The position numbers were made by a program, and so were the translations under genes. A stretch of DNA of 64,000 nucleotides from Escherichia coli (lineage in GTDB: Bacteria > Pseudomonadota > Gammaproteobacteria > Enterobacterales > Enterobacteriaceae), in NCBI RefSeq assembly GCF_030013205.1, contig NZ_CP122648.1, one strand, 5' to 3'. The notes below the pieces were generated by a model that was not told where the DNA came from, made no database searches, and saw nothing but the letters and a program-made list of their open reading frames with translations. Positions within the stretch are counted from its first letter, which is position 1. The number at the start of each line of letters is the position of its first letter. Below are positions 223 through 21,349 of the stretch, in pieces.

Positions 223-285
223 TTACCCAACAGGTAAATGCACCTCATAGGTAACTATCCTTGATTTTTGTTACCTTATGGGTGA
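223..285. promoter_or_regulatory. Three operator-like palindromes in the cI-cro spacer: TTACCCAACAGGTAA (223-237), GCACCTCATAGGTAA (240-254), TTACCTTATGGGTGA (271-285)
   Basis: Read directly; 15-bp dyads of form TTACC-N5-GGTAA between divergent repressor genes, reminiscent of a tripartite OR. Confidence 0.6.
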
Positions 286-321
286 ATATTTATTATCTGA
301 AATAAATATCAGGCAATAGCT

Positions 322-552
322 ATGAGCGATAACGGACATTTCGATTTCAAAAAGCACTGGCTTGCACTTACTCCGGATGAGCGTGAAGCCTTCGCACAGG
401 AAGCCGGAACGACGAGTCACTATATCCAGACTCACTTAACAGGTAAGCGCAAAATGCCAGGTAAAGTATTGATGAATGGGCTTTTTAAAGCCTGTAAAAC
501 AAGACAATGGCTGCGCTCAAAAGCAGAACTGGCATACTTCTTCTACTCATGA
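322..552 (+). CDS. Cro-like small DNA-binding regulator
   Basis: 76-aa ORF divergent from the CI-like gene, immediately right of the operator cluster; followed by a hairpin terminator. Confidence 0.45.
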   Translation: MSDNGHFDFKKHWLALTPDEREAFAQEAGTTSHYIQTHLTGKRKMPGKVLMNGLFKACKTRQWLRSKAELAYFFYS

Positions 553-574
553 TATCCAGCTACAACCCTCTGTA

Positions 575-597
575 GACCGCCACCCGGCGGTCTTTTC
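575..597 (+). terminator. Rho-independent terminator after the cro-like gene
   Basis: GACCGCC-ACCC-GGCGGTC stem followed by TTTT. Confidence 0.5.
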
Positions 598-639
598 ATA
601 TCTATTCGTACCTCAAAGGTAATAAATAACCAAATCTGG

Positions 640-903
640 TTGATCTTTTTTTTGTGTCAGCACAAAATGACCGTAATCCCAATACTAATAACAGGGCTTA
701 CCATGGAAATCATTACACGTATTGATGCCGCAAAGCGCGGACTTAAACGCTACTACACCGGAAAACCATGCAAGCACGGACATGACAGTGAACGCTGGGT
801 TTACAACGGACACTGTGTTGAGTGCACCATGGAATCAAACCGTCGTATCAGGGCAGAGATTAAGCAGATCATGATTAATTCCTCCCCACAACATTCAAGC
901 TGA
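640..903 (+). CDS. Small Cys-rich (zinc-finger-like) phage protein; start possibly internal near 703
   Basis: ORF with CKHGH...CVEC motif between cro-like and replication genes; function not recognised. Confidence 0.3.
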   Translation: MIFFLCQHKMTVIPILITGLTMEIITRIDAAKRGLKRYYTGKPCKHGHDSERWVYNGHCVECTMESNRRIRAEIKQIMINSSPQHSS

Positions 904-918
904 TAGCGGAGATTAATC

Positions 919-18441: not shown

Positions 18442-18478
18442 TCAAATAATTTGTTTGCTATCCAGCACGTTTTGCAAA

Positions 18479-18545
18479 TTACCCGAAAGGTAATATCTAT
18501 TCGTATTCACAGTCTTTCTATCCATATGTGGTTTTTCAGGTAATA
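18479..18545 (+). promoter_or_regulatory. TTACCCGAAAGGTAA palindrome (18479-18493) and TATGTGGTTTTTCAGGTAATAGAAT element upstream of tailspike
   Basis: Read directly. Confidence 0.45.
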
Positions 18546-18597
18546 GAATAACCAGATATGCGGCGCAACGGGTGCTGCGACTATCTGGAGATTTAAC

Positions 18598-20967
18598 ATG
18601 ACGGTCTCAACCGAAGTTGACCACAACGAATACACAGGTAACGGCGTTACGACATCATTTCCGTATACCTTCCGTATTTTCAAAAAATCCGACTTGGTTG
18701 TTCAGGTGGTTGACCTTGATGAAAATATTGCTGTGCTGGCTCTTGATACTGATTACACAGTAACTGGTGCGGGAGGGTACAACGGCGGTAATGTAATTCT
18801 GTCGAAGGCGTTGGCTAACGGTTATCAGATTTCTATATCACGAGACCTCCCGGTTACGCAGGAAACTGATTTGCGTAATCAGGGTAAGTTCTTTGCAGAA
18901 GTGCATGAGGATGCGCTTGATAAGCTAACGATGCTGATTCAGCAGGTTCGAAGCTGGTTCCGGCTGGCGTTGTGTAAGCCATCCAGTATAGCGAATTGGT
19001 ATGACGCACTTAATAACTATATTCGTAATCTGAAAGACCCACGCGACCCTCATGATGCAGCTACAAAAAACTATGTAGATACCATTGTATTCTCTAACCT
19101 TAGCCGAACTCTCCGAGTTCCTGAGCCAATAAATCAGTTACCTCCAGCAGCAGTTCGGCGGAATATGATGCCAGCATTTGATAATGATGGTAATGCGATT
19201 GTTGTTATTCCTCCATCTGGGTCAGCATCTGATGTGCTTATTCAGTTAGCAAGTTCTTCCGATGGAAAGGGGGATGCTTTAGTTGCAGTTAAACAACCTT
19301 ATGCTAATTCTGTAACTATTACTCAACATCAGCACAACACCTATCTTCTTACCCCTTACCACTTCGGAGCAAAGGGAGATGGTATTGCAGATGACACTCT
19401 TGCCCTAAACCGCTGGTCCAATTGCGGAGCTAAGGTACTCTATTGGCCAGCAGGAAAATATCTGGTGAGCCCTACAAATGGTGTTTCTCTGGATATGGAT
19501 AACTACCATACAGGGGATTCCGCACTGACGGCGTGCGTAACCGTTCCCTATGGCGTGAAAATTTATACGGCTGGGACAGAAACCCAGTTATGCGTGAAGG
19601 ATGCTGACTCAGCATCGACCGTAGGTCTGGCCGTTAGCTACCCGGAGTCAAGTTATTCCCAGGGAGAAACCGACATCGGAAAATTCATGATTCGCCTGGA
19701 AAACGGAAATGGTCGGTACGGTATTCTTACTCCACTCAGGGAGGAAATGTTCACTGCGCACCGGGCGAAGTTCAAATTAGGAGCGCATTTCGGTCCTCAA
19801 CAGGGGCGTGATGACCTGACGGTGCTACAGTATTCGTGGGTAAATGGCATGCTGATTGGCGACGCTTTTAGCGGCTCAGTGCATGTCACTGGATACGGCA
19901 GCTATAACGTGCAGCAGGTTGAAGGTACGCAATTCCAGTGCGTGGCCGTTAAGATGAAGTCCGTTCGAGGTAACGTAGGTGTAGACATCAGATTCAACAC
20001 AAACAACTGGTGGAAGTTTGTCGAACTGAGTGACGGCGTTGAAGGGTTTGTTGTCAAGGACAGCGAAGGGCTTGGGGCATTTGTTGGAATCGACCTAACC
20101 AACCCAGCCAGCGAGCCAGGTGGATTTATCGATAACGTACACGTCAACGTTAAGCAAAACGGAGTACGAGCCAGAAACAGGCCATCCCTGCAAATCGGAA
20201 ACATTGAAGTCTATAAAAGTGATGGATTTGCCACTGACCTTGTTTACGATGCGGTGCTTCTGGTTGACTGCCAGGAAGTGACTATCAACTCTATTCACGC
20301 AATCGTCGGCAACTCAATCACAAATGCTCAGTCAGTAGTTAACTCGACAAACAGCACATTCCGCCTGAACTCATACTTTGCGCAAAACATCAGGTTCGTC
20401 GATTTTGTGGTTAATAGCCCTGACTGCTATGTCGGAGAGGGGACAATTAACCAGGTCGAGGCAGTTCACTCACTTTCTGGATCACAAAGCAACGACTTCC
20501 ACGGTAGTGATGTTCTGGTTAGATCCTACAGAAACAACGTTCGCCCACTTTACGCAGTGATGGATTCCGCTTTCAACAGGGCAAGGGCGAGGTTTCCACA
20601 AAATACAAGCCTCCAGGTGAGAACCTTTCTCGACTACACTGTGGCAGCAGCTGGGACTTTAACAATAGAACCAAGGCTTGACCCCTCCAGGTACTACATC
20701 ATCATGAGTGCTGGTACAGGTGCCTTCACCTATTCAATTGAGCTGGATAAAGTGTCTGCCGTAGTTGGTGATATTGTTTACATAAAGATAGCCGGGTCAT
20801 CATCTGCTAACCCAACAGTTTTGGTTAAAAATGGTATTGGTGGGACAACGCTCAGCACATTCAATAATATCGGTCCGATTCGTTTGAATTGTGCTTACAG
20901 ATTTAATGAGTCAGGTAACTGGGTGGCCTACTACATTACCCAAAGCGTTGAAACCACTTATGGCTAA
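18598..20967 (+). CDS. Tailspike/tail fiber protein (conserved N-terminal particle-binding region, beta-helix-like body)
   Basis: 789-aa ORF; position and size typical of podovirus tailspike; N-terminus MTVSTEVDHNEYTGNGVTTSFPYTFRIF... Confidence 0.7.
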   Translation: MTVSTEVDHNEYTGNGVTTSFPYTFRIFKKSDLVVQVVDLDENIAVLALDTDYTVTGAGGYNGGNVILSKALANGYQISISRDLPVTQETDLRNQGKFFAEVHEDALDKLTMLIQQVRSWFRLALCKPSSIANWYDALNNYIRNLKDPRDPHDAATKNYVDTIVFSNLSRTLRVPEPINQLPPAAVRRNMMPAFDNDGNAIVVIPPSGSASDVLIQLASSSDGKGDALVAVKQPYANSVTITQHQHNTYLLTPYHFGAKGDGIADDTLALNRWSNCGAKVLYWPAGKYLVSPTNGVSLDMDNYHTGDSALTACVTVPYGVKIYTAGTETQLCVKDADSASTVGLAVSYPESSYSQGETDIGKFMIRLENGNGRYGILTPLREEMFTAHRAKFKLGAHFGPQQGRDDLTVLQYSWVNGMLIGDAFSGSVHVTGYGSYNVQQVEGTQFQCVAVKMKSVRGNVGVDIRFNTNNWWKFVELSDGVEGFVVKDSEGLGAFVGIDLTNPASEPGGFIDNVHVNVKQNGVRARNRPSLQIGNIEVYKSDGFATDLVYDAVLLVDCQEVTINSIHAIVGNSITNAQSVVNSTNSTFRLNSYFAQNIRFVDFVVNSPDCYVGEGTINQVEAVHSLSGSQSNDFHGSDVLVRSYRNNVRPLYAVMDSAFNRARARFPQNTSLQVRTFLDYTVAAAGTLTIEPRLDPSRYYIIMSAGTGAFTYSIELDKVSAVVGDIVYIKIAGSSSANPTVLVKNGIGGTTLSTFNNIGPIRLNCAYRFNESGNWVAYYITQSVETTYG

Positions 20968-21087
20968 TAGTCATTATTAATATCCTGCAGATGTGACCTA
21001 ACGACAAGCGTCGCCACGATGACAACTACGGAAAGGATGCCGATAACCCACCACATAACTTACCCGCGCAAAATGAATGGATAAAAA

Positions 21088-21297
21088 TCATCCGCTGATT
21101 GATCCTAATCTTTGCATATTTTTCGAAGATGTTACGTTTAGTGGGGCGAAAAAAGCAATTACAGCAATGCCACCTATCGACGTAAGTCCGAAAAAGCCAG
21201 GCTCAGGTCTGCCGCTAATTGGGTATTGATGGCTTACAAGGACTACAAGTGATGCGATAAGCCTGATCACGTCAAAGCAATTATGTCTGTTATTCAT
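21088..21297 (-). pseudogene. Remnant of an acyltransferase-3 family (O-antigen acetylase-like) gene, N-terminal fragment only
   Basis: 69-aa ORF FDVIRLIASLVVLVSHQYPISGRPEP...FFGL..IGGIAVIAFF resembles acyltransferase_3 N-terminus; full genes are over 300 aa. Confidence 0.35.
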
Positions 21298-21334
21298 ACA
21301 TCCATACTGTAGGAAATAGCGATACGAAACAATA

Positions 21335-21349
21335 TCACCTCACGGGTAA
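21335..21349 (+). promoter_or_regulatory. TCACCTCACGGGTAA operator-like palindrome upstream of lysis cassette
   Basis: Read directly; followed by TATATGGTTTGTGTGTATTATAAA promoter-like element. Confidence 0.45.

What the first reader, a model, noticed from the sequence alone, without database searches (positions are those of the whole stretch)
223..21349. One 15-bp palindrome (TTACC-N5-GGTAA) recurs at about ten intergenic sites across the prophage, including three in the cI-cro spacer
Sites read directly: 223-237, 240-254, 271-285 (between the CI-like and cro-like genes), 2572-2586, 2634-2648, 16226-16240, 17267-17281, 17360-17374, 18479-18493 and 21335-21349. All are intergenic and immediately upstream of gene starts: the DUF1064 gene, the 69-aa/membrane-protein operon, the antirepressor leader, the Zn-ribbon membrane protein, the tailspike and the lysis cassette. 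Several are accompanied by a second shared element, TATGTGGTTT. A tripartite cluster in the immunity switch plus dispersed copies suggests the prophage repressor directly controls a distributed regulon (morons, antirepressor, tailspike, lysis) rather than a single early operon. The half-site resembles but differs from lambda TATCACC, so specificity is probably distinct.
Basis: partly seen in the sequence, partly recalled or inferred. Interest (0 to 1): 0.75.

Follow-up and report, generated by a model that had tools for sequence, protein, structure and literature searches.

The report
Repressor operator sites across a prophage
The repeated palindrome is real and is almost certainly the operator of the immunity repressor of an epsilon15/phiV10-type prophage, placed in front of nearly every transcription unit, but the same motif is already annotated as repressor-binding sites in the phage epsilon15 reference genome, so this is a rediscovery.

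Summary
TTACC-N5-GGTAA occurs 7 times exactly in the window against 0 expected. All 7 lie in the 23.4-kb prophage part and none in 40.6 kb of host DNA. With four degenerate copies there are 11 sites, all within the 7.6% of the prophage that is non-coding.

The element is a defective epsilon15/phiV10-like (Uetakevirus) prophage at guaA. The RefSeq record of epsilon15 already annotates seven ATTACC-N5-GGTAAT sites as "protein_bind: repressor, lysogeny" at equally dispersed positions.

- Sites sit at the same positions in seven phages.
- The half-sites never vary while the 5-bp spacer varies freely.
- Paired sites keep a rigid 62-bp spacing.
- Rep's predicted recognition helix is invariant, and the outer half-site base follows that helix in more distant CI repressors.

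Four window sites overlap a -10/+1 in one fixed register. The tailspike and lysis sites lie an estimated 65-70 bp upstream of promoters that carry a second conserved element, so direct repression there is inferred only.

It is already known for the family. Interest is low to moderate.

The parts
1..176 (-). 5' part of the immunity repressor gene (Rep; phiV10 p40 / epsilon15 gp38 / SPC32H Rep family), encoding the N-terminal helix-turn-helix domain. The window begins inside the gene.
   Evidence: Translation starts MKSIQDVRRQNLNDL.... The full-length phiV10 protein, whose N-terminus matches this translation, hits PDB 5D50 (SPC32H Repressor) at E 1.9e-41. The segment (S/T)(Q/A)NLVNRW is invariant across five repressors that are only 43-78% identical overall.
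223..237 (.). Operator, exact (TTACCCAACAGGTAA), in the rep/cro-like spacer; centre 54 nt from the rep start codon.
240..254 (.). Degenerate operator (GCACCTCATAGGTAA, 2 mismatches), 17 bp from the first site.
   Evidence: Aligns with exact sites in epsilon15, SPC32H and BUCT711. The 17-bp spacing is also seen in those phages.
271..285 (.). Operator (1 mismatch) over the rightward promoter of the cro-like gene.
   Evidence: It lies inside the promoter match TTGTTA(268)-17-TATTAT(296) and just after the TTGATT hexamer that is invariant in all five aligned phages.
322..552 (+). Cro-like gene (76 aa), a possible second reader of the same sites.
   Evidence: phrog_35 'transcriptional repressor', E 5.6e-13. 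Shares an invariant segment AGTTSHYIQxHLT across six phages. No significant Pfam match.
608..622 (.). Weak site (GTACCTCAAAGGTAA, 1 mismatch) just after the cro terminator (574-593) and 88 nt (centre) before the p42-like gene.
   Evidence: The orthologous position is occupied in phiV10, Tyrion, TL-2011b, epsilon15 and SPC32H.
2572..2586 (.). Distal operator of the DUF1064 operon pair, 62 bp (centre to centre) from the proximal site.
   Evidence: Among 59 distinct variants from related prophages the half-sites never change while the spacer varies heavily. The 62-bp spacing is seen in 165 pairs with 98 distinct sequences.
2634..2648 (.). Proximal operator over the -10/+1 and ribosome-binding site of the DUF1064 gene (ATG at 2652).
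   Evidence: Read from the sequence: TTGATT(2606)-17-TTTAAT(2629-2634) runs straight into TTACC, and GAGG of the right half-site sits 7 nt before the ATG.
16226..16240 (.). Operator over the -10/+1 of the minus-strand two-gene cargo operon (69 aa and 288 aa).
   Evidence: On the minus strand TTGGCG-18-TAATAT runs straight into TACCTTAAAGGTAA; the centre is 34 nt from the ATG. TL-2011b has a site at the same position in front of different cargo.
17267..17281 (.). Operator over the -10/+1 of the minus-strand promoter that drives isrK, C4 RNA and the Bro-N/Ant gene.
   Evidence: Promoter match TTGATT-18-TATCAT at 17310-17281, with TATCAT running into TACC. Downstream lie isrK (17154-17230) and C4 (17048-17135).
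17360..17374 (.). Operator 28 nt (centre) upstream of the 242-aa Zn-ribbon membrane protein gene, 93 bp from the 17267 site.
   Evidence: The same pair and spacing occur in TL-2011b.
18479..18493 (.). Single operator between the small ant gene (minus strand) and the tailspike gene (plus strand).
   Evidence: The dyad is conserved in all six aligned phages while its spacer varies. Its centre is 84 nt from the ant ATG and 112 nt from the tailspike ATG.
21335..21349 (.). Single operator (TCACC variant) 112 nt (centre) upstream of the lysis cassette.
   Evidence: Orthologous sites are present in phiV10, epsilon15, Tyrion and SPC32H.
2620..2629 (+). Companion element TATGTGGTTT, inside the spacer of the DUF1064 promoter.
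18525..18534 (+). Companion element TATGTGGTTT, followed after 6 nt by TAATAGAAT; putative tailspike promoter with no -35 match.
   Evidence: The block CATATnnGGTT...GGTAATAGAAT is conserved in six phages.
21384..21393 (+). Companion element TATATGGTTT; putative lysis-cassette promoter.
18424..18439 (.). LexA box CTGTATATTTATACAG in front of the small ant gene; the induction input of the same switch.
   Evidence: Conserved in six phages.
18145..18402 (-). Small antirepressor gene of the SPC32H Ant type (same position as epsilon15 gp19 and phiV10 p24).
   Evidence: phrog_450, E 1.4e-47. The gene at the corresponding position in SPC32H is annotated ant.
16307..17044 (-). Bro-N antirepressor whose C-terminal part belongs to the small-Ant family.
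   Evidence: phrog_130 'anti-repressor Ant', E 1.4e-51; residues 151-232 match phrog_450, E 3.4e-37.

Best explanation
The palindromes are the operators of the immunity repressor Rep of an epsilon15/phiV10-type temperate podovirus (Uetakevirus). The N-terminal helix-turn-helix domain of Rep reads the half-site (A)TTACC, and two such domains bind one dyad with a 5-bp spacer that is not read. The spacer varies freely apart from an A/T preference at its centre.

A genome of this family carries about 12-16 such sites, and they sit at the head of nearly every terminator-bounded transcription unit:
- three in the rep/cro spacer;
- two or three at the leftward early promoter;
- one after the cro terminator;
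- a 62-bp pair at the DUF1064/RusA operon;
- an adjacent pair at the terminase genes;
- single sites at the portal, tailspike, lysis and integrase units, and at cargo and antirepressor units.

Shown here are the motif, its enrichment, its conservation and its positions. The following steps are inferred. In the lysogen Rep occupies these sites and silences each unit separately. Where the dyad overlaps the -10/+1, Rep would block RNA polymerase. At pairs 62 bp (about six helical turns) apart, one Rep oligomer would hold both sites and clamp the promoter between them. How the single sites roughly 65-70 bp upstream of the late-type promoters act is uncertain. Induction would come through antirepressors. 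One is a small Ant behind a LexA box. The other is a Bro-N/Ant fusion behind a Rep operator plus isrK and C4 RNA genes. The conserved Cro-like protein probably uses the same sites during lytic growth.
For: 1. Real and phage-specific: 7 exact sites against 0 expected. None occur in 40.6 kb of adjacent host DNA. All 11 sites are non-coding, with a chance probability of about 7e-12.
2. Same motif already annotated: RefSeq NC_004775.2 (epsilon15) marks seven 'protein_bind: repressor, lysogeny' features, and each is (A)TTACC-N5-GGTAAT. They lie at the terminase, portal, tail fibre, leftward promoter (three) and gp43.
3. Orthologous conservation: phiV10, epsilon15, Tyrion, TL-2011b, SPC32H and BUCT711 carry sites at the same genome positions although their repressors are only 43-78% identical to phiV10's.
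4. Selection on the half-sites only: among 59 distinct DUF1064-upstream variants, TTACC and GGTAA of the distal site never change, while the 5-bp spacer and the flanks vary heavily. The same pattern appears in the ant/tailspike and rep/cro alignments.
5. Rigid pair geometry: 165 pairs (98 distinct sequences) are 62 bp apart, against one pair at 61 and one at 63. Adjacent pairs are 17-18 bp apart.
6. Link to the reader protein: the segment (S/T)(Q/A)NLVNRW is invariant in all five Rep types. It falls where Pfam HTH_3 places the recognition helix, although that domain match is weak (E 0.14). More distant CI repressors that share this N-terminal domain carry related dyads in front of their own genes, and the outer base follows the helix. 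The SAN-type helix goes with ATTACC-N4-GGTAAT (PseuP_224). The PTQxSR helix goes with TGTACC-N5-GGTACA (SfV, D14E). A further helix goes with AATACC-N5-GGTATT (pOW20-A). The H-19B helix goes with an unrelated site.
7. Repressive positions: in the window the dyad follows a -10-like hexamer in one register (TAnnAT then TACC) at 2634, 16226, 17267 and 17360, and the same register precedes the terminase gene in relatives. Site 271 lies inside the rightward promoter.
8. Literature: a later paper summarises SPC32H Rep as a tetramer that binds palindromic DNA sites, with Ant breaking the tetramer (PMC9638917). Overexpressing the identical repressor of phage ZX5 cut holin and endolysin transcripts by more than 99.9% (PMC9782041).
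Against: No binding data could be examined. The three primary papers (Kropinski 2007; Kim and Ryu 2013; Kim et al. 2016) are not in the held library, and the epsilon15 features may themselves be predictions.

The Cro-like protein is as conserved as Rep, and I read a similar small gene beside the PseuP_224 repressor.

At the portal, tailspike and lysis units, and at the distal DUF1064 site, the dyad lies roughly 60-70 bp upstream of the putative start. That position suits an activator or a helper site as well as a repressor. The promoter assignments are consensus matches or my own reading, not mapped transcription starts.

Repressor control of cargo genes is unusual, since such genes are normally expressed in lysogens.

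The AlphaFold model of Rep was too poor to use (mean pLDDT 42.5). The N-terminal helix-turn-helix has only weak Pfam support (E 0.14 and 0.0046).
Confidence: 0.78

Rival explanations
1. The dispersed sites, above all the single ones upstream of the portal, tailspike and lysis promoters, are used mainly by another phage regulator. This could be the Cro-like protein or an unidentified activator. It would time or activate lytic transcription, and Rep would matter only at the immunity region.
For: These sites lie roughly 65-70 bp upstream of promoters that lack a -35 match and carry the conserved TATGTGGTTT-N6-(-10) element, a position typical of upstream activators. The Cro-like protein has an invariant helix-turn-helix-like segment in all six phages.
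Against: The same dyad overlaps the -10/+1 at four or more promoters, which is a repressive position. The half-site tracks the recognition helix of the repressor domain in phages outside this genus. The epsilon15 record assigns the sites to the repressor. This reading is not exclusive of the main one, because lambda Cro and CI share operators (established knowledge).
Confidence: 0.15
2. The sites act mainly as roadblocks to transcription that reads through the preceding terminator, as the stoperators of mycobacteriophage L5 do, rather than as blocks to initiation.
For: Several sites come directly after an intrinsic terminator and just before a gene start. Examples are the terminase pair in relatives and sites 608 and 2572 in the window.
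Against: The sites are symmetric and therefore have no orientation, whereas L5 stoperators are asymmetric and depend on orientation (my own knowledge). The fixed register with -10 hexamers and the 62-bp pairs that bracket promoters point to control of initiation.
Confidence: 0.05
3. The palindromes work as RNA hairpins (terminators, processing sites or translational operators), or they are chance or compositional repeats, or they are sites for a host factor.
For: Each dyad can form a small hairpin of -3.6 to -6.2 kcal/mol. Site 2634 overlaps a ribosome-binding site.
Against: The stem bases are invariant in sequence and show no compensatory changes, while the loop varies; that is the pattern of protein recognition of DNA. 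Sites serve genes on both strands, and several lie upstream of the putative transcription start. No T-run follows them. Chance is excluded. A host factor is unlikely because 40.6 kb of host DNA holds no exact copy, and no Rfam family matched at any site at gathering threshold.
Confidence: 0.02

Closest known systems
Annotated repressor-binding sites of Salmonella phage epsilon15 (RefSeq NC_004775.2; genome paper Kropinski et al. 2007, not readable here)
   Same: The same 17-bp dyad ATTACC-N5-GGTAAT, the same genus and a homologous repressor. Sites are placed the same way, before the terminase, portal, tail fibre, leftward early operon and the gp43/DUF1064-position operon.
   Different: The window's phage is of the phiV10/TL-2011b type, and the phiV10 and TL-2011b reference records I read do not annotate the sites. 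It adds sites in front of cargo and Bro-N/Ant units that epsilon15 lacks, and it has lost the terminase and portal sites by deletion. The three rep/cro sites are not among the seven annotated in epsilon15 although they are present there.
Rep/Ant switch of Salmonella phage SPC32H (PDB 5D50 and 5D4Z; Kim and Ryu 2013; Kim et al. 2016)
   Same: Homologous repressor (E 1.9e-41 to 5D50). A small Ant gene sits divergent from the tailspike gene and has a LexA box. The operator layout is the same. Rep is described as a tetramer that binds palindromic sites (PMC9638917).
   Different: The repressors are only about 42% identical overall. The window also has a second, Bro-N-fused Ant behind C4 and isrK RNA genes. 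Which operators were tested experimentally in SPC32H could not be checked.
Phage P1 C1 repressor with its many dispersed operators, including Op51 at the immI (c4-icd-ant) operon (my own knowledge)
   Same: One primary repressor acts directly on many separate transcription units across the genome. These include an operon that encodes a C4 antisense RNA followed by an antirepressor; the window has an Rfam C4 match at 78.6 bits downstream of a Rep operator.
   Different: P1 operators are asymmetric 17-mers read by an unrelated protein. The sites here are symmetric dyads read by a helix-turn-helix domain of the Cro/CI type. The phages are unrelated.
Stoperators of mycobacteriophage L5 gp71 (my own knowledge)
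   Same: Many repressor sites are scattered through the genome in short intergenic gaps, so repression is not limited to one early promoter.
   Different: L5 sites are asymmetric, depend on orientation and block elongation. The sites here are symmetric and are positioned relative to -10 hexamers.
Lambda CI/Cro tripartite operators OR and OL
   Same: Three dyads lie between divergent repressor and cro-like genes and overlap the rightward promoter. A second cluster sits at the leftward promoter. The half-site loosely resembles TATCACC, and some sites here read TCACC.
   Different: The site spacings are 17 and 31 bp. The repressor hits no peptidase family in Pfam and, as I recall from Kim and Ryu 2013, is inactivated by an antirepressor rather than by RecA-stimulated self-cleavage. 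About ten further sites lie outside the immunity region, which lambda lacks.

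Membership tests
Operators of the Uetakevirus (epsilon15 / SPC32H type) immunity repressor | Sequence matches the dyad annotated as repressor-binding in epsilon15, (A)TTACC-N5-GGTAA(T) | tested here: met
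   All seven annotated epsilon15 features fit the pattern. Seven exact and four degenerate copies occur in the window. The centre of the spacer is A or T in 98% of the strand-symmetrised matrix built from 51 distinct sites.
Operators of the Uetakevirus (epsilon15 / SPC32H type) immunity repressor | The host element is a phage of that genus and encodes the homologous repressor | tested here: met
   Aligned segments are 94-97% identical to phiV10, TL-2011b and ZX5, covering 37-45% of the first 24 kb. The repressor N-terminus is in the window. The phiV10 repressor hits PDB 5D50 at E 1.9e-41. The full repressor gene is present in the source genome.
Operators of the Uetakevirus (epsilon15 / SPC32H type) immunity repressor | Sites occupy the same genome positions as in other members | tested here: met
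   The rep/cro triplet, the site after cro, the DUF1064 pair, and the ant/tailspike and lysis sites match phiV10, epsilon15, Tyrion, TL-2011b, SPC32H and BUCT711. The leftward-promoter pair and the integrase site lie in the source genome just left of the window.
Operators of the Uetakevirus (epsilon15 / SPC32H type) immunity repressor | Physical binding by the repressor (gel shift, footprint or ChIP) | not testable with these tools
   The primary papers are not held. Only a second-hand statement is available, that SPC32H Rep binds palindromic sites as a tetramer.
Lambda-type CI operators | Repressor with a LexA-like (S24 peptidase) self-cleaving C-terminal domain | tested here: not met
   Pfam finds only helix-turn-helix families in Rep and no peptidase domain. 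Its C-terminal part matches the SPC32H Rep fragment in PDB 5D4Z. Distant relatives of the N-terminal domain (SfV, PseuP_224) are annotated as UmuD-like or cI repressors.
Lambda-type CI operators | Operators confined to two tripartite clusters that flank the repressor gene | tested here: not met
   At least eight further sites lie 0.4-21 kb from the repressor gene within the window.
Dispersed asymmetric operators (P1 C1 operators; L5 stoperators) | Asymmetric site with orientation-dependent action | tested here: not met
   The sites are perfect or near-perfect dyads. The resemblance is in how the system works (one repressor, many units), not in membership.
Intrinsic terminators or structured RNA elements | Stable G+C-rich stem followed by a T-run, or compensatory changes that preserve a stem | tested here: not met
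   Hairpins are only -3.6 to -6.2 kcal/mol. The terminator scan reports none of the sites. The stems are invariant in sequence and show no compensatory changes.

The most novel reading that the evidence does not exclude
Uetakeviruses may run their late genes without an antitermination cascade. In this reading each late unit (portal, tailspike, lysis) has its own promoter that lacks a -35 and is defined by the conserved caTATGTGGTTT-N6-(-10) element, which would depend on an unidentified phage activator. Each such promoter would also be locked in the lysogen by one Rep dyad roughly 65-70 bp upstream, acting through bridging by the Rep tetramer rather than by occlusion. The same element lies reversed in the spacer of the leftward early promoter. 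It also lies beside the site after cro, pointing back toward cro and rep. It might therefore also switch early promoters off, or mark a promoter for repressor establishment.
Probability: 0.25. Interest if true: 0.5.

Novelty: already known. Interest (0 to 1): 0.25.

Why it matters
For this window the result mainly corrects the record. A motif that looked like a new distributed regulon is the operator set already annotated for the epsilon15 family. It can be used to annotate phiV10-type prophages, which are common in E. coli: 663 of 5,426 complete genomes match a 1.2-kb query from this prophage.

Three points remain worth an experiment. They are new to me, but I could not check them against the primary papers:
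- the rigid 62-bp spacing of operator pairs that bracket promoters, which suggests looping or wrapping by the tetrameric repressor;
- the single operators far upstream of late-type promoters;
- repressor control of cargo genes and of a second antirepressor behind C4 and isrK RNA genes.

Together these would show how a temperate podovirus keeps about ten separate promoters silent with one protein.

Tried and rejected
1. Literature. The epsilon15 genome paper (PMC2698709) and both SPC32H papers (PMC3807360, PMC4983836) are not held. Full-text searches for the motif and for operator descriptions in this genus found nothing usable. The ZX5 paper maps no operators.
2. A scan of viral contigs with the repressor alignment, meant to find divergent repressors for a covariation test, returned 80 loci whose repressor is 100% identical to phiV10's. 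They served only for the polymorphism and spacing counts. Divergent relatives came from tblastn against phage genomes instead.
3. The AlphaFold2 model of Rep from a five-sequence alignment had mean pLDDT 42.5 and was not used.
4. Pfam gave no significant family for the Cro-like protein, the p42-like protein or the p55-type regulator. PADLOC and NCBIfam gave nothing meaningful for the cargo proteins next to the sites. No candidate reader for TATGTGGTTT was identified.
5. RNA hairpin, terminator, chance and host-factor readings were rejected.
6. The one-mismatch hits at 14634 (inside a gene) and in host DNA (28344, 37518, 40896, 49868) are treated as background. The expectation is 1.17 for the whole window, so five is slightly high, but none is conserved or sits by a promoter as far as I examined.
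7. With one mismatch allowed, TATGTGGTTT is not enriched in the window on its own (7 found against 3.65 expected). Its reality rests on the three exact copies and on conservation across genomes.

Full report
**What is in the sequence**

TTACC-N5-GGTAA occurs exactly seven times in the 64-kb window, at 223, 2572, 2634, 16226, 17267, 17360 and 18479. None is expected in 100 dinucleotide-preserving shuffles. The listed site 240-254 has two mismatches but aligns with exact sites in three related phages.

The attR core of phiV10-type phages is at 23362-23378, so the prophage occupies 1-23378. That part holds all seven exact sites. The remaining 40,622 bp of host DNA holds none.

All 11 sites lie in the 7.65% of the prophage that is non-coding under my gene list. 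The chance of that for ten random positions is about 7e-12.

**What the element is**

The first 23.4 kb contains segments 94-97% identical to Escherichia phages TL-2011b, phiV10, ZX5 and phiv142-3, and more distantly related to Salmonella phage epsilon15. These segments cover 37-45% of the first 24 kb. All of these are temperate podoviruses of the genus Uetakevirus.

The window matches E. coli strain ETEC4079 exactly over a 1.2-kb test stretch. In that genome the prophage sits at the 3' end of guaA, as a paper on phage ZX5 describes for that phage.

The window starts inside the repressor gene, and its N-terminal domain is encoded on the minus strand at 1-176.

The prophage is defective. Compared with phiV10, one deletion joins the 3' end of the last early gene to the middle of the major capsid gene at window 4989/4990. 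That removes the terminase, portal and protease genes. A second deletion at 5736-5834 removes tail genes.

**Already annotated**

The RefSeq record of epsilon15 (NC_004775.2) carries seven features labelled 'protein_bind: repressor; lysogeny'. Their sequences are all (A)TTACC-N5-GGTAAT. They lie in front of:
- the small terminase gene;
- the portal operon;
- the tail fibre gene;
- the leftward early operon (three sites);
- gp43, the gene in the position of the window's DUF1064 gene.

The papers that would say whether these sites are predictions or experiments are not in the held library.

A later paper summarises the structural work on the homologous repressor of phage SPC32H. Rep binds palindromic DNA sites as a tetramer, and the antirepressor Ant breaks the tetramer (PMC9638917). 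The phiV10 repressor, whose N-terminus the window encodes, matches that solved protein (PDB 5D50) at E 1.9e-41.

**Independent evidence that these are protein-binding operators**

Position. I scanned six complete genomes whose repressors are 43-78% identical to phiV10's. Each has about 12-16 sites, and they fall at the same places:
- an adjacent pair before the terminase gene;
- one before the portal operon;
- one between ant and the tailspike gene;
- one before the lysis genes;
- one about 45 bp before the integrase gene;
- two or three at the leftward promoter;
- three between the repressor and cro-like genes;
- one after the cro terminator;
- a pair before the DUF1064/RusA operon.

The leftward-promoter pair and the integrase site of this particular prophage lie just outside the window in the source genome.

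Polymorphism. Among 59 distinct variants of the DUF1064-upstream region in related prophages, the ten half-site bases of the distal site never change. The five spacer bases and the flanks vary heavily. The centre of the spacer is A or T in 98% of the strand-symmetrised matrix built from 51 distinct sites. This is the signature of sequence-specific contacts to two half-sites. It is not the signature of an RNA stem, where compensatory changes would be tolerated.

Spacing. Paired sites are 62 bp apart centre to centre in 165 cases with 98 distinct sequences, against one pair at 61 and one at 63. Adjacent pairs are 17-18 bp apart. Sixty-two base pairs is about six helical turns, which fits one oligomer holding both sites on the same face of the DNA.

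**Who reads the sites**

The segment (S/T)(Q/A)NLVNRW is invariant in all five repressor types. It falls where Pfam HTH_3 places the recognition helix, although the N-terminal domain match itself is weak (E 0.14; YdaS-type helix-turn-helix E 0.0046). That invariance explains how phages with such different repressors can share one half-site.

More telling are CI-type repressors of unrelated phages that share only this N-terminal domain (31-42% identity). They have related dyads directly upstream of their own genes, and the outer base of the half-site follows the helix:

| Phage | Segment aligned to the Rep helix | Dyad upstream of its repressor gene |
|---|---|---|
| PseuP_224 | KSANYISR | ATTACC-N4-GGTAAT |
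| SfV | PTQTSR | TGTACC-N5-GGTACA |
| D14E | PTQVSR | TGTACC-N5-GGTACA |
| pOW20-A | GIHYALLGHY | AATACC-N5-GGTATT |
| H-19B | SPSQLTQV | no TACC dyad |

This ties the dyad to the repressor's DNA-binding domain.

The caveat is that the small Cro-like protein is just as conserved, and I read a similar small gene beside the PseuP_224 repressor. It may well use the same sites, as lambda Cro does.

**Position relative to promoters**

There are two classes.

In the first class the dyad follows a -10-like hexamer in one fixed register, TAnnAT then TACC, so its centre falls near +1 (my estimate). The hexamers at 2634, 16226 and 17360 are my own reading of the sequence; the one at 17267 was found by the promoter scan.

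| Site | Strand | Promoter-like hexamers |
|---|---|---|
| 2634 | + | TTGATT-17-TTTAAT |
| 16226 | - | TTGGCG-18-TAATAT |
| 17267 | - | TTGATT-18-TATCAT |
| 17360 | + | weak -10 (GATATT) only |
| terminase gene (relatives only) | + | TACTAT |

Site 271 lies within the rightward promoter. These positions fit simple occlusion of RNA polymerase.

In the second class a single dyad lies roughly 60-70 bp upstream of the putative start. These are 2572, 18479 and 21335 in the window, and the portal site in relatives. At the portal, tailspike and lysis units the promoter lacks a -35 match. This layout is conserved in all the phages that have these units as separate intergenic regions.

How a repressor would act from that upstream position is not clear. 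Bridging by the tetramer is possible, but an activating or helper role cannot be excluded. None of these transcription starts has been mapped, so all distances are estimates.

**Surroundings that change the picture**

Its C-terminal part belongs to the family of the small Ant of SPC32H.

Its roughly 260-nt leader contains an isrK sRNA match (17154-17230, 74.7 bits) and a C4 antisense RNA match (17048-17135, 78.6 bits). This resembles the immI region of phage P1, where the primary repressor controls the c4-ant operon (my own knowledge).

The small Ant itself is the minus-strand gene at 18145-18402. A conserved LexA box at 18424-18439 precedes it, matching what I recall of the SPC32H switch.

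Site 16226 heads a two-gene cargo operon of unknown function. TL-2011b has a site at the same position in front of a different cargo, a YafO-type toxin operon.

**Mechanism and confidence**

The best reading is that Rep tetramers occupy these dyads in the lysogen and silence each terminator-bounded unit separately. Induction would come through Ant proteins. I put 0.78 on the sites being Rep operators, and somewhat less on direct repression at the upstream-type sites.

The rivals are a mainly lytic or activating use by another regulator (0.15, not exclusive), a roadblock function (0.05), and RNA, chance or host-factor readings (0.02).

One indirect experimental hint exists. Overexpressing the identical repressor of phage ZX5 lowered holin and endolysin transcripts by more than 99.9% (PMC9782041). 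That experiment does not separate direct from indirect effects.

**Comparison with known systems, and verdict**

The sites are members of the operator set already annotated for epsilon15. They work like the dispersed operator networks of P1 C1, and more loosely like L5 stoperators, without belonging to either, because those sites are asymmetric.

They differ from lambda operators in three ways: the repressor has no self-cleaving domain, the site spacings differ, and about ten sites lie outside the immunity region.

The finding is real and correctly interpreted, but it is already known for the family. Three details may be new, although I could not check them against the primary papers: the 62-bp spacing, the two classes of site position, and the late-promoter element.

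Noticed in passing
window 17048-17230 (minus strand): Rfam finds a C4 antisense RNA (17048-17135, 78.6 bits) and an isrK sRNA (17154-17230, 74.7 bits) in the leader between a Rep-operator promoter and the Bro-N/Ant gene. An intrinsic terminator-like hairpin lies at 17173-17160. The layout resembles the immI (c4-ant) region of phage P1.
   Followed up: partly
window 4989/4990 and 5736-5834: The prophage is defective. One deletion fuses the 3' end of the p55-type regulator gene to the middle of the major capsid gene, removing the terminase, portal and protease genes. A second deletion removes about 3.3 kb of tail genes. Only 1 of 5,426 complete E. coli genomes (ETEC4079, pig, Belgium) covers at least 80% of a query spanning both junctions.
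   Followed up: yes
window 18424-18439: A perfect LexA box (CTGTATATTTATACAG) lies just upstream of the small antirepressor gene (18145-18402, minus strand). It is conserved in six related phages.
   Followed up: partly
window 2620-2629, 18525-18534, 21384-21393; L001 3310, 24741, 31978 and 33131 (minus strand): The element caTATGTGGTTT, followed after 6 nt by a -10-like hexamer, is conserved at the portal, tailspike and lysis promoters and in the DUF1064 promoter. It also lies reversed in the spacer of the leftward early promoter (TTGACA-16-TAATTA). Another copy lies beside the site after cro, pointing back toward cro and rep, which could mark a promoter for repressor establishment. No reader protein was identified.
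   Followed up: partly
window 14834-14845; L001-L005 just after the p55-type gene: The 12-bp palindrome GTGACATGTCAC sits immediately before the intrinsic terminator at 14846-14863. The same palindrome, or a one-base variant in phiV10, precedes the terminator upstream of the terminase genes in relatives. Its function is unknown.
   Followed up: no
window 1216-1340 and 4306-4407: Tandem repeats of 18 bp (4.1 copies) and 24 bp (2.6 copies) lie inside the replication-initiator gene and could be origin iterons. The 18-bp unit contains GGTAATGTTACC, which is the operator half-sites in everted order. Separately, an exact 51-bp tandem duplication lies inside an early gene.
   Followed up: no
window 15124-16199 (minus strand) and 17395-18123 (plus strand): Cargo genes that sit directly behind Rep operators have no match in PADLOC or NCBIfam and only unknown-function PHROG families. 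They are a 69-aa plus 288-aa membrane-protein operon and a 242-aa membrane protein with C-terminal Zn-ribbon repeats. Repressor-controlled cargo is unusual and might act during induction or infection rather than in the lysogen.
   Followed up: partly
L091 (phage SfV), L092 (D14E), L093 (pOW20-A), L087 (PseuP_224): A wide family of CI-type repressors with the N-terminal pattern IRRxN...KNIG...ARxIE...WLD uses xTACC-N4/5-GGTAx dyads. The outer base follows the recognition helix, giving a small recognition code across phages of Escherichia/Shigella, Pseudomonas and Psychrobacter.
   Followed up: partly
window 37518-37532: A one-mismatch copy (TTACCTGTTTGGTCA, 15.7 bits on the site matrix) lies in host DNA at the start of a 119-aa minus-strand ORF. 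It is probably chance and was not examined further.
   Followed up: no
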